Of a stretch of 64,000 bases of DNA, positions 413 to 56,343 are shown in pieces. The stretch covers positions 13,516,001 through 13,580,000 of the forward strand of contig JBHGNT010000011.1 of assembly GCA_043228905.1 (NCBI GenBank). Direction: 5' to 3'. The DNA comes from Azolla caroliniana. Its lineage: Eukaryota; Plantae; Polypodiophyta. How positions within the stretch are numbered: the first letter of the stretch is position 1; each line of letters starts with the position of its first letter. Under the pieces are notes generated by a model. That model was not told the origin of the DNA, searched no databases, and was given only the letters and a program-made list of their open reading frames with translations. Both the position numbers and the translations under genes were made by a program.

Positions 413-1017
413 AGATTCGACTCCGTTTGGGACAAGACTCCTTTGTCTTTCCTCCTTGCCTCCTCGTTTAGGATGCTTGTCTTTACCGTCTGTAAAGAAA
501 ACTTCTCTTCTTGACAGGAGGTGCTGAGAGTAACCACCAAGTTCTCCCAGCTTTCCGGCAGCATACACATAAGCAAGATGGCCTACATTGCATCATCCAG
601 GGGAAACTTGGTCGTAGCAAGTTGATTTACATACCCCATAAATGTGTTGATGTGTTTGACGATGCTCTCACCGTCTCTGTATTTCAGTCGTATGATTTTA
701 CACATTAGCGAGGTTTTGTTTAGCACGTTCTTCCTCTCGTACAGACCCGACAACTTCTGCCACATCTCGTGGGCATTCGTGTCATTCGCCACATGCTGAA
801 GGACACTTACATTGACACATTGTCGGATTGTGGCCACTGCCTTCCTATTCAGAAGCTTCCAGTCCGACTCCAATACCCCCCTGGGTATTTTTGCTCTATC
901 GACTGGCTCGTACAGGTCTTTAAATATAAGAAGATCTTCCATCTTTATCTTCTAGTCTGCATAGTTCTGTGACTTCAGAACTATCATACCTGGGAAACCG
1001 CTAACACCTCCTTCCAT
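413..1017 (-). pseudogene. Copia gag N-terminal fragment (B3), with stops
   Basis: MEGGVSGFPGMIVL..MEDLLIFKDLYEP..LMCMLPESWENLVVTLS..SILNEEARR matches the B1/B2 gag; cut by the A0 LTR. Confidence 0.85.
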
Positions 1018-1592
1018 GCTTGCACCTCAAGCTCTGATACTAGTTGGTCGAGAAATCGTTGCGGAATATAAATCACAATGAACAGACAATGCTGAAATAC
1101 GAATCAGACCCAAATGCGAGAAAGACAACATAGACGACTATAAACATAGATTTACGTGGAAACCCTAAAACGGGGAAAACCACGGGTGAACAGAATTTCT
1201 TCCCTATACGAAGTGGATATACAATACAAAGATGAATACAATACTCTGTCGAGTGTATCAACCGCATAGGGCTCTTCGTGTCTGCTGTTACTCACACAGC
1301 TATGGCGCGGCTCACACTTCTCTCTCTCACACACTCTCTGCACAAAGTTTTCAACTACTTCTGTTCCTACATCTCTCATAACATGTTTGCCCTAGTTGCA
1401 TATATACTTACGCAACTTTCTGGTTATTTACATACGTAGCCCTCATGAGGCGCACACTAAGGCTATTTACAAATATAGTCTCCCGAGTTGGCTATATACA
1501 CATAGCCCTCATCAAATCGGCTCCTGTTTTTCGACCGTCGGCCTTTCCGAACAATCGGATCTTCCTCCCACTGAAGGGACAAATTCCCAACA
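413..1592 (-). mobile_element. 5' part of an older Copia family-B element (B3): LTR 1045-1592, PBS 1031-1042, gag fragment
   Basis: LTR TGTTGGGAATTTG...CA; PBS TAGTATCAGAGC (one mismatch to TGGTATCAGAGC); gag protein nearly colinear with that of B1 (20288). Confidence 0.85.
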
Positions 1593-12921: not shown

Positions 12922-13728
12922 TTGCATCGTTCGTGGAGAGAGCGTGCACCCAATTCATCTCTGACGCATCAAAAGCTACGGATTGGTCTTCTCTCGCATT
13001 CTTTGCCCTAGGATTAGTTGATTTTTGGGGAAACGGTTGACCCCTTGCCAAGATTTGAATTGTCTTTGTGGGGTTACATGCTAGGAGGTTGGTCTCGAAC
13101 TCGGTGGTTTCTGACCAGTCGTCCATGAGAGGGTTGCCTTCTTGTTCGTGCACTTTTTGTGTGTATGCTTTGATGCGGAAGGTTTTGTTGTTTTTACGCA
13201 TATAGATTGTATCATTCCCAAAATCCATCACAAAGAGGCTTACACGTAGGAATGGTCTCCCTAGTAAACACTCGTAAGCCACATGATTGGATGATCTTGT
13301 GATGACGAAGGTGAGATTGAACTTGACCTCGTGGATAGTGAAGTGGTGTGTAGGGATCATGCCTTTTGGCCGTTGGATAGACCCATTTGCCATTCGGAGT
13401 TTGATGTCCGAAGGAAACATTTTTGGGCTCCCCCACTTACACCAACATTCATAGCTAACTATACTTACCCCTGCTCCGGTGTCGATGATCGTGTCACACA
13501 TCGTGCCGTTGACGCAGACGGGGAGAGTGAAATTAGTATCGTCTCTCTCGAAGTGAGCTTCGCATATATTTACCAGTGTTCCTTCGGGTTTTTTGGGGAT
13601 TGTGGTCATATGAGGGATGTGGGTGTGTATCTTTTCTCCATAACCTACTGACAAGCCTCCATTGAGGCGGCGAAGGATGTCATGCCATGGTTGGATGTCC
13701 AGTTTGAGCAGCTCTTCAAGTGTAAACT
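12922..13728 (-). pseudogene. G1 canonical aspartic protease region
   Basis: LPVCVNGTMCDTIIDTGAGVSIVS...LRMANGS...YECLLGRPFL, upstream of RT on the same strand. Confidence 0.9.
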
Positions 13729-14246
13729 TGTTGAGCAACAAGCTCAACCGGATCCAGATCGGCTGAATAACCCTGAGCCGGATCGGCATTCGGAAGGATG
13801 AGCTAGATCAGTGAGACGGTGAGCAAGTGGGCCAGTGAGTTGGGGAGCCGGTTAGCCGGATCCAACAATAATCGGAAGCTTAGTGATAGCCTAGGCTACT
13901 AGGTAGTTAATGTCTCATAGTTAGTGTCAGATGCTCGTGTGAGCATTGAAGTACACCGTACTTCTGTCAGTCCGTATGGACTTGTATAAAAGTGTTCATT
14001 GAACACAAACAATGTACAGACTAAGTAATATTTTAGATTGAGTTTCTGTGTGCTCTCTCTCTCTCTGTCTCTCCCACATATTGTGTATACTCTAAGCTCT
14101 CCATTAAACCTGCGTTTTCGGTTTTCGGTTTTCTATTGCTTCTGCACAACGTATTCTTTTACATGGTATCAGAGCGCGAGGGTTGAGAACCTCTGCAACC
14201 AACATAGCTTGAAAGGAAAACAAACCAAGAAGAACAGGTAAAACCG

Positions 14247-17200
14247 ATGGACAAAGGAATGGCTAGCTCGCTCCTGGTGGAGAAGCTCGATAGATCCAAC
14301 TACACATCTTGGTCATACAAGATGCACCAGTACCTAGGTACTAGAGCTATGTCGACGGAACTAACGACACAACACCTGATGCGACACACAAGGACTTCCC
14401 AGTGTGGGAACAAGCGGCAAGCAGAGTGATGTACTTCTTCGCGTCCAGTGTCGGAGACCAGCTGCTAAGCCATATCCAAGATGCCAAGACGCCAAAAGAA
14501 GCTTGGGGAAACCTGAAGAAGGTTTTCGCCACAAGCACAACAGCCAAGAAGTTGCAGCTCAGGCAGGAGCTCAGCAATGGATAGAGGCATGGCAAGCTCA
14601 CTTCCAACAGAGAAGCTCGACAGAACCAACTACGCGTCTTGGTCCTACAAGATGCACCAGTACCTGCTCGGGCACGGCTACTGGAGTTATGTCGAAGGAG
14701 CTAATGACGCGGCACCCGAATCGACACACAGAGACTTCCCGTCGTGGGAGCAATCGGCGAGCAGGGTATTGTACTGCTTCGCGTCGTTGTGGGCGAACAA
14801 CTATTGAGCTATGTTCAGGATGCAAAGATGCCAAAGGGTGTGTGGGAAAATCTAAAGAAGATTTTCGCCGCGAGCACCACAGCCAGGAAGCTTCAACTCC
14901 GACAGGAGTTGAGCAACCTACGACAACACGACTTGTCGGTGGCGGACTATACCTCGAAGATCAAGGATATCTGCGACTCCCTCGCCTCCATAGAGGTGAA
15001 CATCGAGGAGAGCGAGATGGTCCAGATCTGTCTCGGAGGTTTGGCGTCGAAGTTTGGAGCGTTCCGAACGGCTGTGTGTACCTGGGAGAATACGTTGTCC
15101 TTCTTTGACTTACAGTCAATGCTCCTAGTAGAGGAGAACCACGCGGGTGCATCTACAAGCACGCACACCAATAGCAGAATGTTGTACACGGAGGGAGATA
15201 GGCCCCGTGGACGTGGAGGACGAGGCGAGTTGGCACGCAATGGAGGCGGCCGACGAGATTAGGGAAGAAGGCACCGAAGTGATGCCGACAGCAACTCCGG
15301 ACCCTTCGGAAACAGGGGGAGTCGAAGCGATGAGAACCGGCAAGGGAAGTCCATCGCGGAGTGTTGGTACTGTGGCAAGAAAGGCCACAGGGAAAGTGAG
15401 TGCTGGAAGAAGCGCGCCGATTCGGAGAGAACTGGTTCCGGGAACGGCTCCAAACATACCGACAAGGGAAATCGGCAGCGATCGCACTACACCGAAGACT
15501 CCGGGAGAGCCGGAGAAGGGACTGCCTTCGTGAGGAGACACGAAGCAAACTCAATGAAACAGACCACCCCGAGATCGGACGAGGTGTTGTACGTAGACTC
15601 CGGCGCGTCAAACCACATAACGAGCCATAAGGAGTGGTTCTCGTACCTTGAAAAACCGATACAACTTGGAGTAGTCACAACTGGAGACGACACTCCGCAT
15701 CCAATCGCGAATGTCGGAGAAGTTCCCCTTAGCCATGTCGGGAAGAAAGGGAAACTCATGAACATGCTGCACGTCCCGACAATCACGAAAAACTTGGTCT
15801 CGATCGGACAGATCGTGGACTAAGGGATGGAGGTTCGGTTTACACACATCGGGTGCTTCATTCAGGAAGAAGGCCGAGTGATTGCGCAAGGGCGCAGAGA
15901 CGGGAGGATGTTCATCCTCGACTCCACTGACGGCGGCACCGCAATGTTCGCGAAGGGACAAAAGACCGAGTCAGACATCGACTTGTGGCACAAGCGGATA
16001 GGCCACATCAACCACCAACGGCTTCAAGATCTGCAATCGAAACAAGTAGTATTCGGATTGCCCAAATTTAGTGGCCGAAAGGCACAAATTTGTGAAGCCT
16101 GCCAGCTCGGGAAGCAACACCGACTTCCTTTCCCAAACGAGCAAAACCGGAGCCGGAATAAGCTCGACCTTATACACTCCGATGTATGGGGGCTGACACA
16201 AAACGTTAGTCTTGGCGGGAGCTAATATTTCGTCTCCTTCATCGACGACCACACGCGGCACACGTGGATCTACCTCATTGAGAGGAAGAGCGAAGTCTTC
16301 GACTGCTTTCGGGACCTCAAAGGGTTCGTGGAAACGGAAACGGGACGAAAGATCAAGTGCCTGCGGTCGGATGGCGGGAAAGAGTACTTCTCCGGTCAAT
16401 TCAACGATTATCTACAACAAATGGGAATTCGGCGCGAATTCAGTTGTAGATACACGCCGGAGCAGAACGGCGTGGCCAAGAGAAAGAACCGGTCAATTGT
16501 GGAAGCAACACGGGCAATGCTGGAGGAGAAGAGCTTGCCCAAGTTCTACTGGGCCGAGGCGGTAAGAACCGCGGTATACATCCAAAACCAGATCGGAGAC
16601 AAAGTGTTGGCGCACGAGCTATATTTTGGAACGAAGCCGAACTTGCGACACTTGAGGGTGTTCGGTAGCATTGCATATGTGCATGTACCGAAGGAGAAAA
16701 GGAGGAAGTTGGACGCAAAGGCCGAGAAATGCATCTTGGTCAGTTACTCGAACGAGCAGAAGGGTTATAAGTGCTATAACCCTCGCACCAAACAAGCGCG
16801 TGTCAGCCGCGATGTTGTGTTTGACGAGTCCGTTCTTGGTACCAGCCCCCGACTCCAATCCGAGCTCTGACGATGAGGTCAGAGAGGCCGAGATGGCTCC
16901 GGATGAGCCCGAAATCGAGACCCGCGACGAGAGCCCGATTTCACTCTGGTTAAGTGGACCGATTGGACGACTGAGTCGGTACAACCAGTCCGATGAAGAG
17001 CCGGCGAGTAGTGGAGACTCGGTCGTGCATTCCCCACGCAGGAAGCCGAGGAGACGGCTTACGCGCAAAGAGAAAGGGAAGAAGAAGGTGTCGGATTCCG
17101 GCACGGATAGGAACGAGTCAAACCGACACGAGTCGACTCCGAGGGAACCGGTGACGGGTCTTTAAAGGTGAAGACCGCGTTGACCGAGAAGGCCTCGACA

Positions 17201-19394
17201 TCGGCTAATGTGAGATTACGCCGATCTACCCGCCAGAAGAACCCTGTTTTGCGGTTCGGATACAACGAGTACATGGCACATCATTATGCGTACATGACCC
17301 GTGTAGCGGAAGTCCGTGAGCCGGAGAGCTACGTAGAAGCGGCTAAAGACGCGAATTGGCGTGTCGCGATGGAGGAAGAGATGCACGCATTGGTGGAGAA
17401 CGAGACCTGGGACCTGGTTGACACACCAACAGGGGTAAAACCGATCGGGTGTAGGTGGGTGTATAAGGTCAAGTACAACACCGATGGCTCCTTTAACCGG
17501 TACAAGGCTCGGCTAGTGGCAAAGGGCTACGCGGAGAAACACGGTATCGACTACGATGAGACGTTTGCCGGTCGCGAAAATGACGACCGTCCGTGTTTTG
17601 CTCGCAATTGCTGTGGCAAAGGGGTGGCACTTACATTAGATGGATGTAAAGAATGCGTTCCTGCAAGGTGACCTTGAGGAACAGGTGTACATGGTACAGC
17701 CCCCCGGATTTCACTCCGGAACGAACTCCTCGGCAGTATGCCGACTGAAGAAGTCCCTTTACGGACTCAAACAAGCCCCGTGTGCCTGGAACGCGAAGAT
17801 CACGCAACAACTGCGTCGGATGGGCTTCATCACGACAAAATCAGACTCTTCCTTGTTCATCCGGAAAGGTCGACTCGGACCGGTTAGTATTTTACTATAT
17901 GTTGATGACTTGGTCATCACCGGCGCGGACCTAGGTGAAATCGACCGCGTGAAGCTCCAGCTTGCGGCATCGTTCGACATGAAGGATCTGGGGGACCTTC
18001 ATTACTTCCTCGGGATCGAAGTGATCCATACCCCCGAAGGCATATTGATCAGCCAACGACATTACGTGCTGGGTATGCTCTTCAAACTCGGGATGGCCGA
18101 CTGTAAGTCCGTCTCGACTCCTCTGGACAGAACCATCAAGCTTCGTCCCGATACGGGAAAGGTATGCGACCCGACGAGGTTCCGCCAAATTGTCGGAAGC
18201 CTCATATACTAGACCATCACCCGACCCGACCTCAGTTATCCGGTTGGGGTGATCAGTCAGTTCATGGCGCGACCTACCGAGGAGCACCTTCAGTGTGTGC
18301 AACGCATACTTCGGTATGTCAACAACACTAAGGACCGGGGACTGCTATATCGGACTGGTGCAGCCGCGCAGTTAGTCGGCTACACCGATGTTGATTGGGC
18401 TGGCAACGCCGCCGATCGCCAATCCACGTCTTGATACGCGTTCTCCCTCAGGAGTGCCGCGATCGCGTGGAGCAGTAAGAAGCAGCCGACAGTTGCACTG
18501 TCGAGCACCGAAGCTGAGTACCGAGGAGCGGTTGTCGCGACATGCGAAGCCATATGTTTGAAGCGGCTACTTAAGGACCTGCAAGAGGAGGTGTCAGATC
18601 CGACGACGATCTACTGTGACAACCTCAACAGCATCCAGCTCGCGAAAAACCCCGTTTTCCACGCACGGACCAAGCACATTGAGGTGCACTACCATTTCGT
18701 CTGTGAGCGTGTCCTTTCCGGTGAAGTCGACCTTCAGTACGTGCCGACAGATCGGCAGATTGACGACATCTTCACCAAGCCTCTTGGTCTGGACAAGTTG
18801 CGGCAATTCTCCGGTGCGCTCGGATTGCGTCACCTCGACGTGCCAAACTTGAGGGGGAGAACAGTCCCGAACGACCAAGCAAGGCAGCAGGAAAGGAGCG
18901 GAGACCGCGACACCACCGAGTCGGTTGACTCGTTTGTCGAGTTCGACTACTTTGGATTGGCTGAAGAAGCCGAGGGCGGACCCGCGGAAAAGTTCGGAAG
19001 AGGACAAAAGGGGAGCAGCCGAAGGAGAGAGCCGAAGCCAACCATGCATGGGGGAGATGACGCCATCGAGGGCGAGAAGACCGAAGACGAGTTGGAGACA
19101 GCCAACTCGGATGAGAGCGAAAACCGATCGGAGGTAGCCGAGTCGGTTCGGATGTTTGATTTAGATACGCTGAATCAACCGAGGCCCAAGCGGAAGAAAA
19201 GGCAGCAGGAAAAGCGTCAACACCACAACAATAGAAGAGCTGATAAGGGCCACATGAGCAAACAAGCCGACCGGAAGGGTCGAAGCGTGCGGAGTCGAAT
19301 AGGTCGAGGAGCGCAAGCGAGGCGAGAAGCCAGGAGGAACCGGTGCTGTGAAGATCCCGAAGAGCCTCAAGTTGAGCTTGAGGGGGAGTGTTGA
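14247..19394 (+). pseudogene. Copia A gag-pol (gag start duplicated; CCHC, PR, INT, RT, RH, charged C-terminal extension), with stops and frameshifts
   Basis: KLDRTNYASWSYKM; CWYCGKKGH; YVDSGASNH; WHKRIGH..CEACQLGK; LRSDGGKEY; MDVKNAFLQG; LLYVDDLVI; HARTKHIEVHYHF. Confidence 0.93.
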
Positions 19395-19619
19395 GAGACA
19401 AGCTCAACATCGGCCAGATCGGCTGAAGAAGCCGAGGACCGGATCGGTTGGGACCGATCGGTTAGGCCGAGTGCGTAAACCGGGAGGTCGTTAGGAAAGA
19501 TATTCCGTGAGGAATATATTTGGGAGTTAGTGTAGGAGCTCTTGATGAGCATTGAAGTATTGTCAGTACTTCGGTCAGTCCTTCTGGGACTTGTATAAAA
19601 GTGTTCACTGAGCACGTCT

Positions 19620-22600
19620 TGTTGGGATTTCGGTCCCTCCGGATGGGATGTCCGGAGATGAATGACGGAAAGTCCGGAGGCTGTTACGGAACCGGAGGAT
19701 GAAGAGTACCCGGCATGAAGCCGGATGAAGACCCCGGCTACGGAGCCGGATGACGAAGAGAAGACCCGGCTACGGAGCCGGATGATGAATGTACCCGGAG
19801 AGAGATCCGGATGCGGGGACATAGTTGTGAATATGTTTGCCAAGGGCCCTTGTGGCTACATTTGTAAATAGCCCGAAAAGTCATATGTGTATAAATATGA
19901 CTTAGGGCAAACAGTTCAGTCGTTGTTGCTTATTTTTCTGTTTTCACTTAGAGAGAGTGAAGTGAGCAGCCGGAGAGAGAGAGAGAGAGAGACGAAGAGG
20001 TCGTTGCCTCTGTGTATTGCCGCCGCCTGTGGCGAAGATAGTGAGCTCAAGGTTGTTGCCTTGAAGCTTCACCATTGTACATCCCTGTTCATAGTGATAG
20101 TTGGAGTTTGAGGACTCCCGTGGTTTTTCCCATTTAGGGTTTTCCACGTAAAATATCCTGTGTACTCTTCTCTCTATAGTCTTCGTGTACTTTGTATTTC
20201 CTATTTTCTGTGAGTTGATCCTATTCCGTGGTTGTGGCCGAGCACCGTTTGCAACAAAGTGGTATCAGAGCGACGGTAACACAGAAAATGGAAGGCGGCA
20301 GCAGCGGGCAGCCGGGGATGATGGTGCTGAATGCGCAGAACTACGCCGACTGGAAGATAAAGATGGAGGATCTGCTCATTGTTCGGGACCTGTATGAACC
20401 GATTGACAGGTCGGAAATACCGAAAGGGGTACTTGAGTCGGAGTGGAAGCTCCTGAACCGGAAAGCCGTAGCGACGATCCGACAATATGTCGATGTAAGC
20501 GTCCTACAACATGTGGCGAACGACACCAACGCATATGAGATGTGGAAGAAGCTGTCGGGCCTCTACGAGAGGAAGAATGCGTTGAACCGGACCTCCCTGA
20601 TGAGGAAGATAGTGAACCTCAAGTACCGGGACGGCGAGAGTATGGTCGAACACGTAAGCACGTTCATGGGATTCGTGAATCAGCTTGCGGCGATCAAGTT
20701 CCCGTTGGAGGATGCAATGCAAGCCATCATCCTGATGTGTACATTGCCGGACAGCTGGGAGAACTTGGTGGTGACTCTCAGCACTTCCTGTACAGAAGAT
20801 AACTTGTCCCTACAAACGGTAAAGACAAGTATTTTGAACGAAGAAGCGCGTCGGAGAGACAAAGAACCGGCCTCCGACTCGAAGGCGCTGCTTACCGAAT
20901 CGGAACGGGGAAGACAATGGAACCGGAGTCCGCAAAGACGGGAGAAGTCGGGGACCCGGTCGCAGTCAAGAGGAAGACCCACATGTTTCCACTGTGGGAA
21001 GCCGGGGCACTTCCGGAAGAATTGCCGGCATTACCAAAAAGACAACGGAGGCGACGACACCGATTCGAAGAAGTCACCGGAGAGAAACGGTGCATACCGG
21101 GGAGCTACGGACCGGAGAGGTCCGGATCGGCGAGGGCAGGACCGGAAAGGAACGACGGCACTCGCGGCAAGTGAAGAGGAGATAATGCTCATTACCGAAG
21201 AGAGGGAGCTGAACCTTGCCGGTGAAGAGATGACCTGGGTGGTCGATTCCGGAGCGTCGTTCCACCTGACCCCGGAGAAGAAATACTTCTCATCCTACAC
21301 AGCCGGTGAGCATGGCTGTGTCCGGATGGGAAATGAAGGTACATGCCGGATTGCCGGCATAGGAGACGTGTGGCTGATGACATCAACCGGATGCAAGATG
21401 CTGCTGAAGGATGTCCGACACGTTCCGGAGGTTCGACTGAACCTGATTTCGGCCGGGAGGCTAGACGATGAAGGCTACACGGGTAGCATCCGGAACGGTG
21501 TCATGAAGTTCAGCAAGGGGAGCCTGATAGTGGCTCGGGCCCGGAAGGTCAACACACTGTACCTGATGAATTCCCGGCTATGTCCGGGAGAGCTGAATGT
21601 GGCAGCCGACACTGCCGGTGAGCTGTGGCACAAAAGACTGTGCCACATGAGTGAGAAGGGGATGAAGAGGCTTGCAGAAGACAACCTCATTCCAGTGAAG
21701 CATGTGCACCTGGAGAAGTGCACTGATTGCCTGGCCGGTAAGCAGAACCGAACCTCCTTCCACTCAAGGCCACCGACGAGACGTAGCGCACCATTGGAGT
21801 TGGTGCACACTGATGTGTGTCAAGTAGAAACGAAGTCACATGGCGGAGCCCAGTACTTCGTGACATTCATTGATGACCACAGCCGGAAGCTGTGGACGGC
21901 GCCGTTGAAGACAAAGGACCAAGTGTTGTCCGTCTTCAAAGAACTCCACGCGAGAGTGGAAAGAGAATCCGGCAAGAAGCTGAAAGCGATACGAGCGGAT
22001 AACGGAGGGGAATACCGGGGGCAGTTCGAGGAGTACTGTCGCTCGAAGGGAATCCGGCTCGAGTTCACTGTGCCGAAGACGCCGGAACTGAACGGGCTGG
22101 CCGAGAGGATGAACCGGACCATAATGGAGAGGGTCCGGAGTATGCCGGCGCATGCGAAATTACCCAAGGGGTTTTGGGCTGAGGCGATGTCGACGGCGAC
22201 ATATGTGATAAATAGATCACCCTCAGTACCTTTGGACGGAGACACGCCGCAGAAAGTGTGGACCGGTAAGGAAGTGTCCTACCGGCATCTGAAGGTGTTC
22301 GGGTGTCTCGCATACGTGCATGTGGCGAAGGACCGGAGAGGAAAGCTAGATCCGAAGACCCGGCCATGCATATTCCTCGGTTACGGCGACGACGAGTTCG
22401 GCTACCGAGTATGGGACCCGGTCGACAAGAAGATATTTAGGAGTCGAGACATCATCTTCATGGAGGACAAGACACTCGCCGACTGGGAGTCGGAGAAGAA
22501 GGTGAAGAGCTCCAAGTCGACCGGTGAGGATCAACTCTACAAGGAGCAGTCCCGACCGGCAAGGGACCGGTTAACACTCGAGGATCCGGCCGAAGACGAT

Positions 22601-25008
22601 GAAGAAACCGAACCGGCCGAAGAAGATGAAAACGATACCGGAACCGGCCCCGATCCCGAAATGGATTCGGATGAAGAAGAATCGGAAGAACCGGTTACCG
22701 AAGCTCCGGAACGGAGATATCCTCTAAGAGAGAGAAGGGCCCCCCGGAGATTTCCGGAACCAGAGCACGTGCTGCTAACCGACGAGGGGGAGCCGGAGAG
22801 CTTTGAAGAAGCAAAACATGACACCCAGAGCCGCAGGTGGTTGAGTGCCATGCAGGACGAGATGGATTCCCTGCATGAGAATCACACATATGAACTTGTG
22901 GAGCTGCCGAAAGGAAAACGGGCACTCCGTAACAAGTGGGTGTTCAAGCTGAAACCGGGAGATGCCGGAAACCCCCCGAGATACAAAGCCAGGATCGTGG
23001 TGAAGGGGTTTCAGCAGAAGAAGGGCGTCGACTTCGACGAGATATTTGCCCCGGTAGTGAAGATGACCTCCATCCGGACGGTGCTGAGCATAGCGGCAAG
23101 CATGGACCTCGAGATAGAACAGATGGACGTGAAGACGGCATTCCTTCACGGTGACCTCGATGAAGAGATCTACATGCAGCAACCGGAAGGATTCGAGAAG
23201 AAAGGGAAGGAGCACCTGGTATGCCGATTGAAGAAGAGCCTTTACGGACTGAAGCAGGCTCCCCGGCAATGGTACTGGAAGTTCGACTCCTTCATGACCG
23301 ACGAAGGGTACCTCAAAACGCAGTCCGACCACTGCGTGTTTGTGAAGAAGTTCGAAGGAGGAGACTTCCTAATACTCCTCCTGTACGTGGACGACATGTT
23401 GATCGTCGGACGGGACCAGGTCAAGATACGGATGCTGAAGAAGGCTCTTCACCGAACCTTCTCAATGAAGGACCTGGGTCCGGCGAGGCAAATACTAGGG
23501 ATGCACATCATCCGGAACCGGAAGAAGAAGCAGTTGTGGCTGTCACAAGAGAAGTACGTGACGAAGGTGCTTCACCGGTTCAACATGTCGGAAGCAAGAC
23601 CGGTCGGATCGACCCTCCCGGCAAACTGCAAGCTGTCCAGCAAGCAAAGTCCCAAGACAAAGGCTGAAAAGGAGGATATGATGAAAGTGCCGTATGCCTC
23701 AGCCGTCGGGAGCTTGATGTACGCCATGGTGTGTACGAGACCGGACATCGGATATGCAGTCGGAGTGGTGAGCCGGTACATGAGCAATCCCGGCAAAGAG
23801 CATTGGAACGCGGCCAAGTGGATACTCCGATACCTGAAGGGCACGGCAAACGTGTGCCTCCGATTCGGCTCCGGTAAGCCCGAACTCGACGGCTTCACCG
23901 ATTCGGATATGTCGGCTGATGCAGATACCAGCCGGTCCACATCAGGGTATGTGATGACGTATGCAGGGGGAGCCGTTTCGTGGCAGTCGAGGCTGCAGAA
24001 GACGGTTGCGTTGTCAACCACGGAGGCGGAGTACATGGCGGCTGTTGAAGCCGGTAAGGAAATAATATGGATGAAGAACTTCATTAGAGAGCTCGGTATC
24101 CGGCAGGAGGAGTACCAGCTCTACTGCGATAGTCAGAGTGCCATCCACCTTGCGAAGAACGCGGCCTACCATTCCTGGACAAAACACATCCAGCGCAGAT
24201 ATCACTGGATCCGGGAAAGGATAGAAGACAAGGAGTTCGTGCTGACGAAGATCCACACGGACGAGAACGGGTCGGATATGCTGACCAAGGTGCTTACACC
24301 CGACAAGCTGGAAGCATGCCGGAAGAGGATCGGGTTGGAGAGACATCCCATGCCGAAGTGAAGGGGGAGTTTGTTGGGATTTCGGTCCCTCCGGATGGGA
24401 TGTCCGGAGATGAATGACGGAAAGTCCGGAGGCTGTTACGGAACCGGAGGATGAAGAGTACCCGGCATGAAGCCGGATGAAGACCCCGGCTACGGAGCCG
24501 GATGACGAAGAGAAGACCCGGCTACGGAGCCGGATGATGAATGTACCCGGAGAGAGATCCGGATGCGGGGACATAGTTGTGAATATGTTTGCCAAGGGCC
24601 CTTGTGGCTACATTTGTAAATAGCCCGAAAAGTCATATGTGTATAAATATGACTTAGGGCAAACAGTTCAGTCGTTGTTGCTTATTTTTCTGTTTTCACT
24701 TAGAGAGAGTGAAGTGAGCAGCCGGAGAGAGAGAGAGAGAGAGACGAAGAGGTCGTTGCCTCTGTGTATTGCCGCCGCCTGTGGCGAAGATAGTGAGCTC
24801 AAGGTTGTTGCCTTGAAGCTTCACCATTGTACATCCCTGTTCATAGTGATAGTTGGAGTTTGAGGACTCCCGTGGTTTTTCCCATTTAGGGTTTTCCACG
24901 TAAAATATCCTGTGTACTCTTCTCTCTATAGTCTTCGTGTACTTTGTATTTCCTATTTTCTGTGAGTTGATCCTATTCCGTGGTTGTGGCCGAGCACCGT
25001 TTGCAACA
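19620..25008 (+). mobile_element. Full-length young Copia family-B element (B1, Tnt1/Tork-like): LTRs 19620-20256 and 24372-25008 (637 bp), PBS 20260-20271, PPT about 24360-24369, TSD CGTCT
   Basis: LTRs appear identical by eye; CGTCT at 19615-19619 and 25009-25013; single uninterrupted ORF. Confidence 0.97.
20288..24361 (+). CDS. Copia gag-pol polyprotein (1357 aa from ATG 20288)
   Basis: CFHCGKPGHFRKNC; WVVDSGASFH; LWHKRLCH..CTDC; IRADNGGEY; MDVKTAFLHG; LLYVDDMLIVG; KVPYASAVGSLMYAM; YCDSQSAIHL. Motifs resemble the Tnt1 polyprotein. Confidence 0.96.
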   Translation: MEGGSSGQPGMMVLNAQNYADWKIKMEDLLIVRDLYEPIDRSEIPKGVLESEWKLLNRKAVATIRQYVDVSVLQHVANDTNAYEMWKKLSGLYERKNALNRTSLMRKIVNLKYRDGESMVEHVSTFMGFVNQLAAIKFPLEDAMQAIILMCTLPDSWENLVVTLSTSCTEDNLSLQTVKTSILNEEARRRDKEPASDSKALLTESERGRQWNRSPQRREKSGTRSQSRGRPTCFHCGKPGHFRKNCRHYQKDNGGDDTDSKKSPERNGAYRGATDRRGPDRRGQDRKGTTALAASEEEIMLITEERELNLAGEEMTWVVDSGASFHLTPEKKYFSSYTAGEHGCVRMGNEGTCRIAGIGDVWLMTSTGCKMLLKDVRHVPEVRLNLISAGRLDDEGYTGSIRNGVMKFSKGSLIVARARKVNTLYLMNSRLCPGELNVAADTAGELWHKRLCHMSEKGMKRLAEDNLIPVKHVHLEKCTDCLAGKQNRTSFHSRPPTRRSAPLELVHTDVCQVETKSHGGAQYFVTFIDDHSRKLWTAPLKTKDQVLSVFKELHARVERESGKKLKAIRADNGGEYRGQFEEYCRSKGIRLEFTVPKTPELNGLAERMNRTIMERVRSMPAHAKLPKGFWAEAMSTATYVINRSPSVPLDGDTPQKVWTGKEVSYRHLKVFGCLAYVHVAKDRRGKLDPKTRPCIFLGYGDDEFGYRVWDPVDKKIFRSRDIIFMEDKTLADWESEKKVKSSKSTGEDQLYKEQSRPARDRLTLEDPAEDDEETEPAEEDENDTGTGPDPEMDSDEEESEEPVTEAPERRYPLRERRAPRRFPEPEHVLLTDEGEPESFEEAKHDTQSRRWLSAMQDEMDSLHENHTYELVELPKGKRALRNKWVFKLKPGDAGNPPRYKARIVVKGFQQKKGVDFDEIFAPVVKMTSIRTVLSIAASMDLEIEQMDVKTAFLHGDLDEEIYMQQPEGFEKKGKEHLVCRLKKSLYGLKQAPRQWYWKFDSFMTDEGYLKTQSDHCVFVKKFEGGDFLILLLYVDDMLIVGRDQVKIRMLKKALHRTFSMKDLGPARQILGMHIIRNRKKKQLWLSQEKYVTKVLHRFNMSEARPVGSTLPANCKLSSKQSPKTKAEKEDMMKVPYASAVGSLMYAMVCTRPDIGYAVGVVSRYMSNPGKEHWNAAKWILRYLKGTANVCLRFGSGKPELDGFTDSDMSADADTSRSTSGYVMTYAGGAVSWQSRLQKTVALSTTEAEYMAAVEAGKEIIWMKNFIRELGIRQEEYQLYCDSQSAIHLAKNAAYHSWTKHIQRRYHWIRERIEDKEFVLTKIHTDENGSDMLTKVLTPDKLEACRKRIGLERHPMPK

Positions 25009-25174
25009 CGTCTTATGTACAGACTGAGTATTATTGTTGAATATATTTTTTGTGTCTTCTCTCACTCTCTCTGTCTCTCCTGCGTATACCGTGTAAGCTC
25101 AAGCCCTCCATTGAACCTAAGTTTCCTTCCTTCTGTTCGGTCTTCATACCTGCTTCCGCACGCTACTTTCTACA

Positions 25175-26374: not shown

Positions 26375-29300
26375 ATTACAAAAATTTCTTTGTGCATACA
26401 ATGTGCTCAACAGCACTATTTATACAAGTCCTTAGAAGGATTGACAGAAGTACAGTGTACTTCAATGCTCACACGAACGTCTAACACTAACTACGAGACA
26501 ATGATTACCTAGTAGTCTAGGCTACTACTAGGCTTCCGGTTACCGCTCTGACCCGGTTACCTAGTAGTCTAGGTGTCCGCTTGGCCTTTAGTTGATTTGG
26601 TTCGTCCGAATCCAACTGTTGAACCAAATCGGCTGTCTCCGATCCGTTCCCGCTCTTGTCTGAATCAGTTGCTCCCGATTTGTTCCAACTCTTGTCAGAG
26701 TCGATGTTCTCCAACTCGTCTTGCGGTTTCAGGCCCTTCACCACATCAGACCATGTCCAGGTCTTGGCCTTCTCATACCGGTCAGCTTTGTCCTTCTTGA
26801 CTCTGTCGCCGTTGCCGCTCGTTCCAACTTGTTCGGATGTGCCGACTTCCTTCATCGACTCAGCTTCCTTTTTCCCTCTGTCTCCCCCTTTGTTGGTTCT
26901 TTCTTCCTCTCCGGCTCCTTGTCTGATGCCATCCGTTCCCTTTCCTTTTCTCCCCCTCAAGTGTGGCACGTCGAGATGTTGAACACCAAGCATTTCGGTG
27001 AAGTGTTGCAACTTGTCCGATCCGAGTGGTTTGGTGAAGATATTGGCAACTTGCCGATCCGTCTGAACATACCGAAGTTCGACTTCACCACTCATGACCC
27101 ACTCACGCACGAAGTGATAATGCACTTCTATGTGCTTCGTTCGAGCATGGAATACGGAGTTCTTGGCGAGCTGAATGCATCACCGGCCCAATCGGCATCT
27201 GTATATCCAACTAGCTCTTCGGTTATACCATGTCGGTATAACAGTCCTCGTTCCTTCGTGCCACTCACATACCGCAATACTCGATACACGCATTGAAGGT
27301 GCTCCACGATTGGCTTCTGCATGAACTGGTTGATCACTCCGACCGGGTAACAGAGGTCGGGTCGAGTGATTGTCAGGTATATGAGGCTTTCGACAATTTG
27401 TCAGAACCGTTTCTCATCGCAAGACGGTCCAGAGTTGGGACAGAACTTCTGGTTTTGGTCTAGGGGTGTGGACACAAGTCGGCATTTCGTCATGCCGAAC
27501 TTGTACAGCATATTCAACACATAGTGTCATTGTGAGAGCAATATGTCGTCAAGGGTTCGGATCACCTCGATCCCAAGAAAATAATGAAGGTCCCCCAGGT
27601 CCTTCATTTCAAATGCGTCCGACAACTAGGACTTTACTCGGCCGATTTCATTGAGTCCAAGTCCGGTGATGACCAAATCATCTACATAAAACAAAATGCA
27701 AACCGGATTGTCCGAACCTTGCCGGATGAACAAGGATGAGTCGGATTTAGAGGTCACAAACCCCATCTTACACAATCGATGCGTGATCTTCGCATTCCAA
27801 GCTCGGGGGGCTTGTTTCAAATCGTAAAGCGACTTCTTGAGCCGGCACACCGCCGACTTGTTCATCTCCAACTGAAAACCGGGAGGTTGGATCATATAGA
27901 CCCGTTCATCAAGGTCACCTTGAAGAAACGCATTCTTCACGTCCATCTGGTGAAGATGCCACCCCCTTTTTGCAGCAACCGCCAGTACCACACGAACCGT
28001 CGTCATCTTCGCTACCAGAGCGAAGGTCTCATCATAGTCGATTCCATGGGTCTGTGCGTATCCCTTCGCCACTAATTGGGCCATGTACCAGTTAACCAAA
28101 CCGTCGGCATTGTACTTTACCTTGTACCCCCATTTGCAACCAATCGGTTTACAGTGTCGGGGAGGGTCAACGAGGTCCCATGTGTCGTCGGCATCGAGTG
28201 CCTGCATTTCTTCCTCCATAGCGGCACGCCAATTTGCGTCCTTTGCCGCTTCTACATAGCTCTCCGGCTCACGCACTTTCGCCGCTTTGGTCATGTACGC
28301 ATAATGATGCGCAATGTACTCATTGTACCCATACCGCGTAATGGGGTTCTTCTGGCGGGAAGACCGGCGTAACTTGTCATCACCCGGTTTGGGGCCCTTC
28401 TTGGCTGGTTCGGACTTCATTCCCGAAGATCCGCCTTCATCCTTTTCAGAGTCGGATGCACTCCAATCCAACTCAACATTGCCGGCTTCGTATTCCGGCA
28501 TCTTCTTCTTCCCCTTCTCTTTGCGCGTGAACCGTCTCTTTGGTTCCTTGCGCGGGGAGAGCACGGCAGAGTCTCCACTACTCGTCGGTTCTTCATCCGA
28601 CTAGTCACTTTGACCTAGTCGCTCGTTCGGTCCGCTCAACCGAAACGATTCTGGACTCTCTTCTAGAGTCTCCAGCTCTTCGTCTTCTATATGGACCTCC
28701 TCGGGCTCACTAGCCTCATCTTCCAGAATCGGGTCTTCGTTGGGAGTTGGAGTCGATAAGGAGTACCATGATGTTGTCTCATCGAACTGAACATCTCGGC
28801 TTACTAGGACCTGCTTAGTTTGGGGATTATAGCACTTATACCCCTTTTGCTCATGCGAGTAGCCGACTAGGATGCACTTCTCCGACTTCAAATCCAGCTT
28901 CCTCCGCTTCTCATCTGGTACATGCACATATGCTATGTTGCCGAATATCTAAAGGTGTCTCAAATTCGGCTTGTGCCCAAAATATAGCTCGTGTGCTGAC
29001 ACCTTGTCACCGATCTGGTTTTGGATGTAGACAGTCATCTGGACCGCCTCAGCCGAGTAGAAATGGGGTATGCTCTTCTCCTCCTGCATTGCCCTTGCCG
29101 CGTTGACAATCGACCGGTTCTTCCTTTCAGCCACACCGTTTTGCTCCGGCGTGTATCTGCAGCTGAATTCTCTCCGAATTCCATTATGCTGCAGATAATT
29201 GTTGAATTGGCTAGAAAAGTATTCTTTCCCGCCATCCGACCGCAGGCACTTGATCTTCCTCTCCGTTTCCCATTCAACCAAGCTTTGAAGGTTCTGGAAA

Positions 29301-31512
29301 CACTCAAAGACTTCGCTCTTCCTCTCGATGAGGTAGATCCACGTGTGTCGGCTATAGTCATCGATGAAGGAGACGAAATACCGACTCCCACTAAGACTAA
29401 CGTTTTGTGTCGGTCCCCATACATCCGAATGGATTAAATCAAGCTTGTTATGGCTCTAGTTTTGTTTGGTGGGGAATGGAAGCCGGTATTTCTTCCCGAG
29501 TTGGCAAGCTTCACATATTTGGACCTTCCGACCACTGAATTTCGGCAATCTGAACACAACTTGTTTCGATTGCAGGTCTTGAAGCCTCCGGTAATTGACG
29601 TGGCCGATCCACTTGTGCCAAAGATTGATGTTCGATTCAATCTTCTGTCCTTTGGCAAACATGGCGGTGCCGACGTCATTGGTGTTGACGATGAACATCC
29701 TCCTTTCTCTGCGCCCTTGTGCAATTATCCGGTCTTCTTCCTCGATGAAGCACCCTAGGTGCGTAAACTGCACCTGCATCCCCTGGTCGACGATTTTTCC
29801 AACTGACACCAGGCTCTTTGTGATTGTCGGAATGTGTAGTACGTTCATTAGCTTCCCCTTTTGTCTAACATGGCTTAAAGGGATTTCTCCAACATGCACA
29901 ATTGGGTGAGGGGTGTCGTCTCCGGTTTCGACAATCCCCGGTTGTTCCGGCTTCTCCAAAAAAGAGAACCACTCTTCATGGCTCGTCATGTGGTTGGACG
30001 CTCCGAAATCAACGTACCATACTTCCTCCAATTTGGAAGTAGTCTTCTTCATCGAGTTAGCCTTGTGCTTCATCACGAAGGCTAGCCCTTTACCGGTTTT
30101 CCCGATTCCGGATCCTTCCAATCCTTCCGCGTAGTGAGAGCTTTGCCGGTTCTCCCGACTAGTTTTGCCGGATCCGGATTTGTCCAAATCGGCGCGCTTG
30201 TTCCAGCACTCGCTTTCCCTGTGGCCCTTTTTGCCACAATACCAGCATTCTGTGTCGGCCTTTCCTTGCCGGTTCTCGTCGCCGCTTTGACTCCCCCTGC
30301 TTGTGGAGGGTTTGGAACTGTTGTCGGCACCACCTCTGTGCCTCCGGTCCTGCTCTTGCCAGCCGCCTCCATTGCGTGCCGACCCACCTCGTCCACCACG
30401 TCCATGGGGCCGATCTGTCTCCGTGTACAGCATCCGGTCGTCCGATTGAGTGGTCCTTGACCCACTCCCATGGTTTTCTTTGACCATCAGCATCGACTGC
30501 AAGTCGAAGAAAGACAGTGGTTTCTCCCCTAAACCCTAAACCTTTGCGCTAGACCACCGAGGCAGATTTGTGCCATCTCGTCTTCATCCACCATCACATT
30601 GATGGACCCGAGCACGTCGCAGATCTCCTTTATCTTGGTGGTGTAATCCGTAACCGACATGTCTCTTTGTCGGATGTTGTTTAGCTCTTGTCGGAGCTAC
30701 AACTTACGGGTTGTGGTACTCGCGGTGAAAATCTTTCGTAGATTTTCCCAGGCCTCCTTCGACGTCTTTGCATGCTTGATGTAGCTGAGCATCTAGTCGT
30801 GCACACAGGACGCGAGGCAGCACAATACTTGGCTCGCTCCTTACTCCCATATCGGGAAATCCTTGTGTGACGGCTCCGGTGCTACTTCATTTGTTCCTTC
30901 CACGAAGCTCCAATATCCATGCCTCAACAGGTACTGGTGCATTTTATATGACCAGGACGCGTAGTTGCTCCGGTCCAACTTCTCCGTTGGAAGTGAACTT
31001 GCCATTCTTCTGTCCATATCTTCTCTCTATCTATTGTTACCAGGTGCTAGGGTTCGTCTTCAAAGGCGTCTGTCGGTTGCAGAGGTTCTCAACCCTCGTG
31101 CTCTAATACCATGAAAACATCAAAGTGTGGAAGCGTTTGATCAATACCGGCTCATCCGGATAGCAAGAGAGAGTGTGTGAGAGAGAGAGAGATAGATTAA
31201 CAATGAGTACACAGGAGAGACACGGAGAGAGCAGACAACGGTTCTTCTATTACAAAAAATTCTCTGTGCATACAACGTGCTCAAAAGCACTATTTATACA
31301 AGTCCTTAGAAGGACTGACAGAAGTATAGTGTACTTCAATGCTCACATGAGCGTCTGACACTAACTACGAGACAATGATTACCTAGTAGTCTAGGCTACT
31401 ACTAGGCTTCCAGTTACCGCTCTAACCTAGCTCACCGGCTCACCAATCCGTCTCGCTCACTAGCTCAGGCTTATTCAGCCGATCTGGATCCGGTTGAGCT
31501 TGCCGCTCAACA
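26375..31512 (-). mobile_element. Copia family-A element (A3): 5' LTR 31112-31512, PBS 31100-31111, only the middle of the 3' LTR left (26375-26572)
   Basis: TGTTGAGCGGCAAGCTCAAC...CA plus TGGTATTAGAGC; 26375-26550 aligns with about 31249-31425; PPT and both ends of the 3' LTR are missing. Confidence 0.9.
26573..31017 (-). pseudogene. Copia A gag-pol (A3), degraded, with an internal deletion in RNase H
   Basis: ECWYCGKKGHRESECW; WYVDFGASNH; LRSDGGKEYF; MDVKNAFLQG; FYVDDLVI; YTDADWAGDA joined directly to IQLAKNSVFHARTKH near 27178. Confidence 0.92.
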
Positions 31513-35140: not shown

Positions 35141-35424
35141 CACACATAGAAAACAAAAGAAAGAATGCCTTCCCACAATGATGGAGCCCCGACGGGCGGG
35201 CGGACGGACGGGACGGGCGGCGAACGGGAAAAGCATCGAAATCTCTCTCAATACAACCAAAACTAAAACACACACACACACACACACACAAAATACATGT
35301 AATTACAAATTTTACGATATATATACACATAGAGATTGTGTGTGTGTGTGTTATGTATGGCCAACAGGAAGGAAGAAGCTTGTGTAGCCTGTTGTAATTA
35401 TTCTTCGCACTAAACCCCTTCCAT

Positions 35425-36918: not shown

Positions 36919-37085
36919 GTAGACTTAAAATTATAAATGTAAATGAATTTGCTCTAATGTTGTGATGTACATAAGAATCCATGCCTAGCTAGTGTTATCG
37001 TCTATACACACACACACACACCCCTTGGATTGTTTATTTTAGAGATATGATCCATGGTGTCCACTTCCATTTTATTTCATGCTAG

Positions 37086-46598: not shown

Positions 46599-49500
46599 TG
46601 TTGGAATTACGGTCCCTTTCGGATGGGATGGTCGGATGTCAATGCCGACGAGCCCGGTTTCGGTTTCGGATCCGGATGATGAAGACCCCGGCTTCGGTGC
46701 CGGATGACGGATGTACCCAGAGAGCGTTCCGGATGCAGGGACATATCCGTGAATATGTTCGCTATGGGCCCCTGAGGCTATAGTTGTAAATAGCCCAAAG
46801 TCATATAAGTATAAATATGACTTAGGGCAAATAGTTTTAGAGTTGCTGCTTATTTTTCTGTTTTTCCACTCAAGGGGAGTGAAGCGAGAGCAGCCGCGAG
46901 AGAGAGAGAGAGAGATAGAGCGCGAGAGACGAAGAGGTAGACGCCTCTGTGTATTTCCGCCGCCTGTGGCGAGGACAACGAGCTCAAGGTCGTCGCCTTG
47001 CAGCTCGCCATTGTATACTTCTCTGTATAGTGTTTGGTTTGGAGTCTTGTACTCCCGTGGTTTTTCCCGTCTAGGGTTTTCCACGTTAATCCCTGTGTAC
47101 TCGCGTTTTATTTTGTTTCTACGTGTGGTTCCTATTTTCTGCTCCATTGACCCGCGATTAATCGGTTGTGGCCGACTGAAGAAGGTGAATAGAAGGTTCG
47201 ATTCCCAACAAACTGGTATCAGAGCGAGCTGTTGCAGAAAATGGAAGGCGGCGGCAGCGGGCAGCCGGGAATGATGGTGCTGAATGCGCTGAATTACGCC
47301 GACTGGAAGATCAAGATGGAGGATCTTCTGATTGTTCGGGACCTGTACGAACCGATTGACAGGTCGGAAATACCGAAAGGGGTACTTGAGTCGGAGTGGA
47401 AGCTCCTGAACCGGAAAGCCGTAGCGACGATCCGACAATATGTCGATGTGAGTGTCCTACAACATGTGGCGAACGACACCAACGCATATGAGATGTGGAA
47501 GAAGCTGTCGGGCCTCTACGAGAGGAAGAATGCCTTGAACCGGACCTCCCTGATGAGGAAGATAGTGAATCTCAAGTACCGGGATGGCGAGAGTATGGTG
47601 GAACACGTAAGCACGTTCATGGGATTCGTGAACCAGCTTGCGGCGATTAAGTTCCCGTTGGAGGATGCAATGCAAGCCATCATCCTGATGTGTACATTGC
47701 CGGAAAGCTAGGAGAACTTGGTGGTGACTCTCAGCACCTCGTGCACCGAAGATAACTTGTCCTTACAAACGGTAAAGACAAGTATTTTGAACGAAGAAGC
47801 GCGTCGGAGAGATAAAGAACCGGCCTCCGACACGAAGGCGCTGCTTACCGAATCGGATCGGGGAAGACAATGGAACCGGAGTCCGCAAAGACGGGAGAAG
47901 TCGGGGACCCGGTCGCAGTCAAGAGGAAGGCCTACATGCTTCCACTGTGGGAAGCCGGGGCACTTCCGAAAGAATTGCCGGCATTACCGAAAAGACAACG
48001 GAGCCGACGACACCGACTCGAAGAAGTCACCGGAGAGAAACGGTGCATACCGGGGAGCCACGGACCGGAGAGGTTCGGATCGGCGAGGGCAGGATCGGAA
48101 AGGAACAACGGCACTCGCGGCAAGTGAGGAAGAAATCATGCTCATCACCGAAGAAGGTGAGCTAAACGTTGCCGGCGATGAGACGACCTGGGTGGTCGAT
48201 TCCGGAGCATCGTTCCACCTGACCCCGGAGAGAAGATACTTCTCATCCTACACAGCCGGTGAGCATGGCTGTGTTCGGATGGGAAATGAAGGTACGTGCC
48301 GGATTGCCGGCATAGGAGACGTGTGGTTGACAACCCCGACCGGATGCAAAATGCTGCTGAAGGATGTCCGACACGTTCCGGAGGTTCGATTGAACCTGAT
48401 TTCGGCCGGGAGGCTAGACGATGAAGGCTACACTGGTAGCATCCGGAACGGCGTAATGAAGTTCAGCAAGGGGAGCCTGATAGTGGCTCGGGCCCGGAAA
48501 GACAACACACTGTACCTGATGAATGCCCGGTTATGTCCGGAAGAGCTGAATGTGGCAACCGACACTGTCGGTGAGCTGTGGCACAAGAGACTGTGCCACA
48601 TGAGTGAGAAGGGGATGAAGAGGCTTGCAGAAGACAACCTCATCCCAGTGAAGCATGTGCACCTGGAGAAGTGCACCGATTGCCTGGCCGGTAAGCAGAA
48701 CCGAACCTCCTTCCACTCAAGGCCACCGACGAGACGTAGCGCACCATTGGAGTTGGTGCACACTGACGTGTGTCAGGTAGAGACGAAGTCACATGGCGGA
48801 GCCCAGTACTTCGTAACATTCATAGATGACCATAGCCGGAAGCTGTGGACGGCACCGTTGAAGACAAAGGACCAAGTATTGTCTGTCTTCAAAGAACTCC
48901 ACGCGAGAGTGGAAAGGGAATCCGGCAAGAAGCTGAAAGCGATACGAGCGGATAACGGAGGGGAATACCGGGGGCAGTTCCAGGAGTACTGTCGCTCGAA
49001 GGGAATCCGGCTCGAGTTTACTGTGCCGAAGACGCCGGAACTGAACGGGCTGGCCGAGAGGATGAACCGGACCATAATGGAGAGGGTCCGGAGTATGCTG
49101 GCGCATGCGAAATTACCCAAGGGGTTTTGGGCTGAGGCAATGTCGACGGCGACATACGTGATAAACAGATCACCCTCAGTACCTCTGGACGGAGACACGC
49201 CGCAGAAAGTGTGGACCGGTAAGGAAGTGTCCTACCGGCATCTGAAGGTGTTCGGGTGTCTCGCATACGTGCATGTGGCAAAGGACCGGAGAGGAAAGCT
49301 AGATCCAAAGACCCGGCCATGCATATTCCTCGGTTACGGCGACGACGAGTTCGGCTACCGAGTATGGGACCCGGTCGACAAGAAGATATTCAGGAGTCGA
49401 GACATCATCTTCATGGAGGACAAGACACTCGCCGACTGGGAGTCGGAGAAGAAGATGAAGAGCTCCAAGTCGACCGGTGAGGATCAACTCTACGAGGAGC

Positions 49501-51936: not shown

Positions 51937-51941
51937 TATGG

Positions 51942-56292: not shown

Positions 56293-56343
<51 letters not shown>

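What the first reader, a model, noticed from the sequence alone, without database searches (positions are those of the whole stretch)
19620..25008. Extreme CCGG enrichment across the young Copia B family
Seen (hand counts): 12 CCGG in the first 200 bp of the B1 LTR and 21 in 660 bp of coding sequence (20881-21540), against about one each of GGCC, GCGC and CGCG in that same coding stretch. Roughly 3-4 would be expected from base composition. The bias spans U3 and all pol domains, so protein constraint does not explain it; B2 shows it too. Three non-synonymous B1/B2 differences are CCGG/CTGG switches, in both directions (MPAH/MLAH, WYWK/WYRK, HSWTK/HSRTK). From memory of moss methylome work (not verified here): CG methylation in CCG/CGG contexts depends on MET1-CMT interplay, and CCGG is comparatively under-methylated in early-diverging plants. 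Inference: the family places its CGs in a methylation-resistant context, as a possible silencing-evasion strategy, or a context-specific mutation/repair bias drives it.
Basis: partly seen in the sequence, partly recalled or inferred. Interest (0 to 1): 0.75.

Follow-up and report, generated by a model that had tools for sequence, protein, structure and literature searches.

The report
Plant retrotransposon packs CGs into CCGG
A young, very abundant plant jumping-gene family carries three to four times more of the word CCGG than chance along its promoter and genes, without carrying more CG overall, most likely because its host's methylation-linked mutation and repair rules favour CG pairs flanked by C and G; escape from silencing remains an untested alternative.

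Summary
B1 (19620-25008) is an intact Ty1/copia element with identical LTRs. It holds 104 CCGG against 28 expected; the ORF holds 78 against 45.5 under synonymous shuffles (z 7.8), while total CG is normal (o/e 1.0). B2 and 10 of 11 close relatives share the bias; distant relatives and two of the window's gypsy stretches do not.

CCGG is not a special word. CGs in a one-strand CCG/CGG context are favoured 1.6- to 3.9-fold in all seven close Copia sets tested, and CCGG matches the product of the two strand effects (B1: predicted 8.7, seen 8.4).

Passive protection from methyl-C decay explains the rank order but not the size, because CCGG exceeds the non-CG baseline three- to tenfold in this clade. 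Evidence that CCGG mutates less is mixed: supportive in two tests, absent in a third.

I favour a host methylation-linked substitution or fixation bias (0.45) over selection for silencing evasion (0.3). No methylation data or host genome was available, and the recalled moss CCGG hypomethylation could not be verified in print.

The parts
19620..20256 (+). B1 5' LTR, 637 bp, TG...CA, identical to the 3' LTR
   Evidence: 0 differences in 637
19620..19829 (+). U3 block of short, partly palindromic repeats; 12 CCGG; 18 of 19 CGs lie in CCG/CGG context
   Evidence: tandem units of 25 and 32 bp; RNA fold z -2.4, 3 of 200 shuffles as good
20260..20271 (+). primer-binding site (initiator-Met type, assignment recalled)
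   Evidence: sequence
20288..24361 (+). single gag-pol ORF, 1357 aa, order gag, zinc knuckle, protease, integrase, RT; 78 CCGG spread over all three codon phases (26/17/35)
24360..24369 (+). polypurine tract
   Evidence: sequence
24372..25008 (+). B1 3' LTR
19615..19619 (+). 5-bp target-site duplication, repeated at 25009-25013; the target is an LTR of the other (A) Copia lineage
   Evidence: flank similarity
46599..51936 (+). B2, second copy: LTRs differ at 1 of 612 bases, 5-bp target duplication, one stop in gag, 84 CCGG
413..1305 (-). decayed gag-side fragment of a sister family (76% aa identity to B1); 1 CCGG against 1.1 expected in its coding part
13712..19619 (+). A1, Copia of a distant lineage (32% aa identity); weak version of the bias (35 vs 26)
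   Evidence: boundaries approximate
26375..31427 (-). A2, same distant lineage; intermediate bias (36 vs 17.3)

Best explanation
The B family shows a whole-element excess of CCGG that equals the product of a CCG/CGG preference on each strand, and this preference is likely a substitution bias set by how the host methylates and repairs CCG/CGG duplexes rather than a motif with a function of its own. Shown: CGs with a flanking C on one strand are over-retained at synonymous sites in the close Copia sets, and CCGG gets the effect twice. Inferred step 1: such CGs lose C to T more slowly in the replicating lineage because they are less fully methylated; this accounts for the rank order CCGG > CCG/CGG > other CG and suffices for the low-GC sister family. 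Inferred step 2: in the GC-rich B clade an additional bias towards C/G in this context (mismatch repair or copy-to-copy conversion among very many copies; enzyme unknown) lifts CCGG above the non-CG baseline. The U3 cluster has been amplified further by local tandem duplication.
For: At synonymous third positions, one-strand CCG/CGG versus other CG has odds ratio 3.88 (B1), 2.36 (L001), 2.03 (L002+L015), 1.56 (L014+L018, p 0.07), 2.02 (L003+L022), 2.17 (A1) and 2.26 (A2), but 0.88, 1.16 and 0.67 in three sets of distant relatives. Multiplicative prediction versus observed CCGG odds: 8.73/8.41, 2.50/2.97, 2.69/3.44, 1.45/1.96, 0.69/0.64, 2.74/2.25; A1 misses at 3.15/1.71. The effect is shared with a lineage only 32% identical in the same window, which points to the host. 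There is no fixed spacing and no consistent flanking base at synonymous opportunities. Family-wide variants of 3% or more in run X3 over 21240-21540: inner C of CCGG 1 of 20, other CG 7 of 24 (p 0.054; 1 of 18 vs 7 of 16, p 0.014, after trimming 30 bp ends). CG kept between B1 and L001: 56 of 73 in CCGG, 124 of 222 elsewhere (p 0.0015). In a two-state model on fourfold sites, B1 versus L001 pol, 12 of 65 differ; a gain bias expects 15.9, symmetric selection 7.0, a pure cold spot 3.4. Lower CCG than CAG/CTG methylation and MET1 dependence of mCCG are published (PMC5221884, passages).
Against: Counting each site once and stratifying by synonymous status, the inner C of CCGG is not protected in seven sister-subfamily copies (9 of 50 sites hit; odds ratio 0.87 vs other CG, p 0.93); the apparent gradient was pseudoreplicated. 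Polarised recent gains of CCGG are not raised (3 of 63 vs 37 of 1123; 0 of 22 vs 5 of 385). CCGG also beats its transversion neighbour (C:G 16:3 vs 43:41 in B1, p 0.01), and switch paths have a background transition share (63:22 vs 88:32), so a simple T:G over-repair does not suffice. Two gypsy stretches of the same window are depleted of CCGG (ratios 0.49 and 0.23), so the host rule is not universal. PMC5221884 finds CG methylation largely context-independent in four angiosperms. The two-state test assumes equilibrium and rests on few sites. No enzyme is known to me for step 2.
Confidence: 0.45

Rival explanations
1. Selection among copies: elements that place C and G in CCGG are silenced less or are read positively by a host factor, and so transpose more.
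For: Occupancy exceeds the non-CG baseline (43 of 45 vs 441 of 654 in B1, odds ratio 10.4; 3.2 in L001; 3.7 in L002+L015), by transversion as well as transition routes, which is how a fixation bias behaves. Dead or decaying copies lose CCGG like other CG, so the excess is a property of the replicating line. U3 CGs are mostly in CCG/CGG context in B1 (18 of 19), B2, L003, L022 and A1. The family is young and very abundant.
Against: Total CG is not reduced. The one Physcomitrella precedent I read concerns CG/CHG-depleted elements (bioRxiv 2020.03.04.971267, passages). Symmetric selection under-predicts differing sites in all five comparisons (p 0.01-0.19). It needs a scaled advantage near 1.9 at each of about 80 coding sites. 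No extended motif or spacing. The sister family's U3 uses CCGA and no CCGG.
Confidence: 0.3
2. Passive cold spot only: CGs in CCG/CGG are under-methylated, decay slowly, and nothing else acts.
For: Fits the low-GC sister family, where CCGG sits near the non-CG baseline (odds ratio 0.63, p 0.14) and other CGs far below it (0.18); fits.
Against: Protection cannot lift a CG above unmethylated cytosines, yet the B clade shows 3- to 10-fold. It expects 3.4 differing sites where 12 of 65 are seen (p 0.0001). No protection is seen.
Confidence: 0.12
3. A by-product of other forces: a family-specific reverse-transcriptase error spectrum, avoidance of CAG (splice-acceptor-like) on the sense strand, or selection for RNA structure.
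For: Sense-strand CA|G is depleted in B1 (10 of 87 vs 42 of 133, p 0.0006) while CT|G is not, and several routes to CCGG start from CAG. The ORF folds more stably than synonymous shuffles (z -5.0). The strength differs by family.
Against: With A set aside, C still dominates before GG (16 of 19 vs 43 of 91). The folding excess persists with CCGG fixed (z -3.0 in B1, -4.8 in L001) and occurs in seven CCGG-poor relatives (z -2.0 to -4.9). The other G/C palindromes are not enriched. The effect is shared with an RT lineage 32% identical. RT error spectra were not testable.
Confidence: 0.13

Closest known systems
Ty1/copia retrotransposons of the Tnt1 (Tork) type
   Same: Single gag-pol ORF, integrase before RT, TG...CA LTRs, 5-bp target duplication; named hits 'TNT 1-94' at about 52-57% identity.
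   Different: Distant relatives show uniform CG depletion, CCGG included (odds 0.22 vs non-CG). B1 has GC3 0.69, CG o/e 1.0 and 26% of coding CGs in CCGG.
Maize Sirevirus LTR palindromes (Ji, Opie; PMC4728375, passages read)
   Same: Multiple short palindromes containing CCGG in the upstream half of the LTR, prone to duplication and hairpins.
   Different: There the motif is a 17-bp LTR consensus and the elements are about 95% CG-methylated. Here the excess is a bare 4-mer that also runs through the whole coding region; B1 has short LTRs and no room for an env-like gene.
Subcontext methylation rules: lower mCCG than mCAG/mCTG, MET1 dependence of mCCG (PMC5221884, passages read)
   Same: Singles out the CCG/CGG duplex, the unit that explains the pattern here. 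CAG/CTG cytosines also change most in the sister copies (odds 2.9 vs CHH, p 0.0009).
   Different: That paper concerns the outer C, finds inner CG methylation nearly context-free in angiosperms, and in the passages seen reports no compositional footprint in transposons.
VANC anti-silencing system of Arabidopsis VANDAL transposons (PMC5735166, abstract and outline)
   Same: Element-specific short motifs multiplied by tandem repeats.
   Different: VANC targets are non-coding and read by an element-encoded protein; B1 has one sense-strand gag-pol ORF and its bias is mostly in coding DNA.
Dcm/Vsr very-short-patch repair footprint in E. coli (recalled)
   Same: A repair bias that leaves an oligonucleotide excess.
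   Different: Vsr acts through T:G mismatches only. Here routes include transversions at the background share and conserved residues are not preferentially altered (3 of 49 vs 41 of 431).

Membership tests
Ty1/copia LTR retrotransposon | domain order gag, protease, integrase, RT | tested here: met
   Pfam positions 27-193, 317-397, 500-599, 865-1106
Ty1/copia LTR retrotransposon | paired LTRs TG...CA, primer-binding site, polypurine tract, target-site duplication | tested here: met
Tork/Tnt1 lineage | placement with curated lineage references | tested here: inconclusive
   named hits are 'TNT 1-94'-like; no curated lineage set was available and the lineage name is recalled
Sirevirus | env-like region after pol and long LTRs with the 17-bp palindrome | tested here: not met
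   the ORF ends at the polypurine tract and the LTR is 637 bp; the Ji/Opie consensus is not visible in U3 by eye, no pattern search was run
VANC-type anti-silencing system | element-encoded anti-silencing protein | tested here: inconclusive
   no second ATG-led gene is evident; four antisense and one alternative-frame stop-to-stop ORFs of 152-197 aa inside B1 were not scanned
VANC-type anti-silencing system | motifs confined to non-coding DNA | tested here: not met
   78 of 104 CCGG are in the ORF
Vsr-type repair footprint | gain only through T:G transitions, altering conserved residues | tested here: not met
   63:22 vs 88:32 transitions to transversions; 3 of 49 vs 41 of 431
Methylation-evading composition | lower measured methylation at the favoured context | not testable with these tools
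   no bisulfite or long-read run among the 22 listed, library not on record; indirect mutation tests disagree

The most novel reading that the evidence does not exclude
A plant retrotransposon clade has been selected, codon by codon across its whole genome, to move its CGs into CCGG because that context escapes or reverses the host's MET1/CMT silencing loop: silencing evasion written in synonymous sites, with no anti-silencing protein.
Probability: 0.2. Interest if true: 0.8.

Novelty: new variant of a known kind. Interest (0 to 1): 0.5.

Why it matters
Transposon composition is usually read as plain CG loss. Here CG is kept but re-sorted by context, in a graded and multiplicative way shared by unrelated Copia lineages of one host group and absent from distant relatives. 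If it is mutational, transposon sequence alone reports a host's CCG/CGG methylation rules, and the excess above baseline implies an undescribed repair or conversion bias. If it is selective, it is a new route of silencing evasion. One methylome of this host would separate much of this. Practically, HpaII/MspI-based assays would over-sample this family.

Tried and rejected
No host genome is held, so genome-wide family-by-age analysis was impossible; viral and prokaryote collections gave no relatives.

Host identity is unresolved. The only host gene found is a bHLH (exon 1 at about 35398-36919); its 5 named hits of 21 are one lycophyte and four fern proteins at E 7e-6 or weaker. Searches gave no closer name (Streptophyta only).

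No RNA holder was listed; this says nothing on expression.

Insertion scars of the TA-CCGG-TA kind: 0 in B1. Fixed spacing or a longer motif: none. RNA structure and CAG avoidance: insufficient. General avoidance of CAG/CTG: not seen at fourfold sites (occupancy 0.34 vs 0.29).

Private-change counts (5 of 81 vs 30 of 306, p 0.39) and in the low-GC family (2 of 34) were too thin. One search's gradient (4.8/9.2/13.5%) was dropped as pseudoreplicated, which also left out aa 730-860 as unsafely aligned. Duplications within the window hold 1 CCGG site, too few to use. One search showed only 40 of 882 variant rows and was not used for context rates. The maximum-likelihood tree timed out; FastTree was used with no clade test.

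Literature: 10 searches listed no report of CCGG enrichment across a retrotransposon; most subscription papers are not held, and three papers sought by recalled identifiers were not available. One search returned an irrelevant paper. No supplements were read; those of the two moss methylome papers may hold subcontext data.

Full report
The element. B1 spans 19620-25008: two identical 637-bp LTRs, a 5-bp target duplication, a primer-binding site and a polypurine tract, and one 1357-aa gag-pol ORF in copia order. It sits inside an LTR of another Copia lineage. B2 (46599-51936) differs at 149 substitutions in the ORF, has one stop in gag, and its LTRs differ at 1 of 612 bases. Named homologues are Tnt1-like. 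The family is very abundant: 33,702 to 97,206 contigs of each of four runs, from four differently coded organisms, lay on it. No host genome is held. The host is a land plant whose lineage I could not name.

The observation. B1 has 104 CCGG against 28 expected. The ORF has 78 against 45.5 +/- 4.2 under synonymous shuffles and 28.8 under a third-position null, while total CG is as expected. Every coding domain carries 13-33 per kb and U3 57 per kb, against about 5 expected; the rest of the LTR has 2.3. Where a synonymous choice can make CCGG it usually does: Pro before G 26 of 33 (13 of 26 otherwise), NCC before GG 17 of 26 (24 of 94 before GH), CGG-Arg after C 35 of 50 (10 of 55 otherwise). 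It is not a property of all GC-rich DNA here: ratios are 3.67 (B1), 2.92 (B2), 2.08 (A2), 1.35 (A1), 1.35 (51937-59500), 0.49 (gypsy-like 1500-9000), 0.73 (gene region) and 0.23 (59500-64000).

Relatives. Of 76 metagenome loci, 10 of the 11 at 77% or more protein identity have at least twice the expected CCGG; L014 (1.35) is the exception. Of 51 loci under 60% identity, 4 reach that ratio, each on 5 or fewer sites. Integrase and RNase H trees group B1/B2 with the enriched L001 subfamily (support 0.90 and 0.95), with L014 and the low-GC L003/L022 family outside (FastTree, no clade test). Sites turn over: B1 72, L001 59, shared 42. L018 matches the decayed copy at the window's left end at 89-92%, so at least some close loci come from this host or a near one.

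What the pattern is. At synonymous third positions I compared how often C (or G on the other strand) is kept against its transition partner. A CG with a flanking C on one strand is favoured over other CGs in all seven close sets (odds 1.56-3.88; six significant), including A1 and A2 at 32% identity, and in none of three distant sets (0.67-1.16). CCGG is close to the product of the two one-strand effects in six of the seven. There is no fixed spacing and no consistent longer motif at synonymous opportunities. U3 regions follow the same rule: 18 of 19 CGs in B1's U3 are in CCG/CGG context, and the sister family's U3 is built on CCGA with no CCGG. The unit is therefore the CCG/CGG duplex, which is known to be treated differently by plant methylation (PMC5221884, passages).

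Is CCGG protected? The evidence is mixed. For: among family-wide variants at 3% or more in one 301-bp stretch chosen beforehand on context counts, 1 of 20 inner CCGG cytosines varies against 7 of 24 other CG cytosines (p 0.054; synonymous only 0 of 7 vs 4 of 9, p 0.09); this is one run and contig depths are rough. B1 and L001 keep 77% of CCGG CGs and 56% of others, although high occupancy alone raises retention. Against: in seven copies of the L001 subfamily, counted once per site and stratified, there is no protection (odds 0.87, p 0.93), and synonymous CCGG losses are 27 of 287 against 55 of 545 for other CG.

Is protection enough? Not for this clade. CCGG exceeds non-CG cytosines 10.4-fold in B1 and 3.2- to 3.7-fold in the L001 subfamily, whereas it is at 0.63 in the low-GC family and 0.22 in distant relatives. 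It also beats its transversion neighbour. In a two-state model a pure cold spot is rejected (3.4 expected, 12 of 65 seen, p 0.0001), a gain bias fits (15.9) and symmetric selection is marginal (7.0, p 0.04); the model assumes equilibrium. Yet recent polarised gains are not raised, routes are not confined to transitions and conserved residues are not pushed. The extra force may have acted mainly on the stem of the clade.

Verdict on mechanism. Shown: a graded, multiplicative CCG/CGG preference shared by two Copia lineages of this host group and extreme in the B clade. Inferred: it stems from host methylation and repair rules, with an added bias towards C/G in this context (0.45). Selection for evasion or for a host reader stays open (0.3), because a fixation bias and selection leave similar traces; it is weakened by the unreduced CG content and by the precedent of CG/CHG-depleted Copia-2 in Physcomitrella (bioRxiv 2020.03.04.971267, abstract end and passages). 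Pure protection (0.12) and side effects of RT errors, CAG avoidance or RNA folding (0.13) are less likely.

Relation to what is known. CCGG-containing LTR palindromes are described for maize Sireviruses (PMC4728375, passages), and motif-based anti-silencing for VANDAL elements (PMC5735166, abstract); neither covers a coding-wide synonymous bias. PMC6739443 (passages) shows bryophyte rDNA cut by both HpaII and MspI, but also unmethylated at CCWGG, so it is not context-specific support. My searches for a published CCGG excess in retrotransposons listed none, within a library that lacks most subscription papers. I rate it a new variant of a known kind, interest 0.5: a solid, clade-wide and easily tested pattern whose cause is undecided.

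Noticed in passing
window 20288-24361: Sense-strand CA|G across codon boundaries is depleted (10 of 87 vs 42 of 133) while CT|G is not; also low in A1 and A2, reversed in six distant relatives. Possible avoidance of splice-acceptor-like sites.
   Followed up: partly
L003, L005, L006, L022, start of the 3' LTR: The low-GC sister family has a U3 built on CCGA/TCGG repeats with no CCGG, so U3 motifs differ by family but share the CCG/CGG core.
   Followed up: partly
L001, gag part: L001's gag is on a very long branch while its pol groups with B1; possibly a recombinant.
   Followed up: no
L031 coding region: A distant relative (44% identity) has a 2.5-fold share of CCGA/TCGG without CCGG excess.
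   Followed up: no
window 35398-38250: Host bHLH gene with a long His/Pro-rich first exon and an ACT-like tail; closest named hits are lycophyte and fern proteins.
   Followed up: partly
window 38408-42172: Tandem duplication of about 1.9 kb at 94% identity just downstream of the bHLH gene.
   Followed up: no
window 10180-11780: Very AT-rich (GC 0.22-0.29) array of 140- to 170-bp repeats with inverted copies, perhaps a non-autonomous DNA transposon end.
   Followed up: no
window 52283-55218 and 59663-63987, minus strand: Two gypsy elements, the second with a chromodomain; the second is CG-poor with 1 CCGG among 79 coding CGs.
   Followed up: partly
window 20288-23287 and nine relatives: All ten Copia coding regions tested fold more stably as RNA than synonymous shuffles (z -2.0 to -5.0), whatever their CCGG content.
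   Followed up: partly
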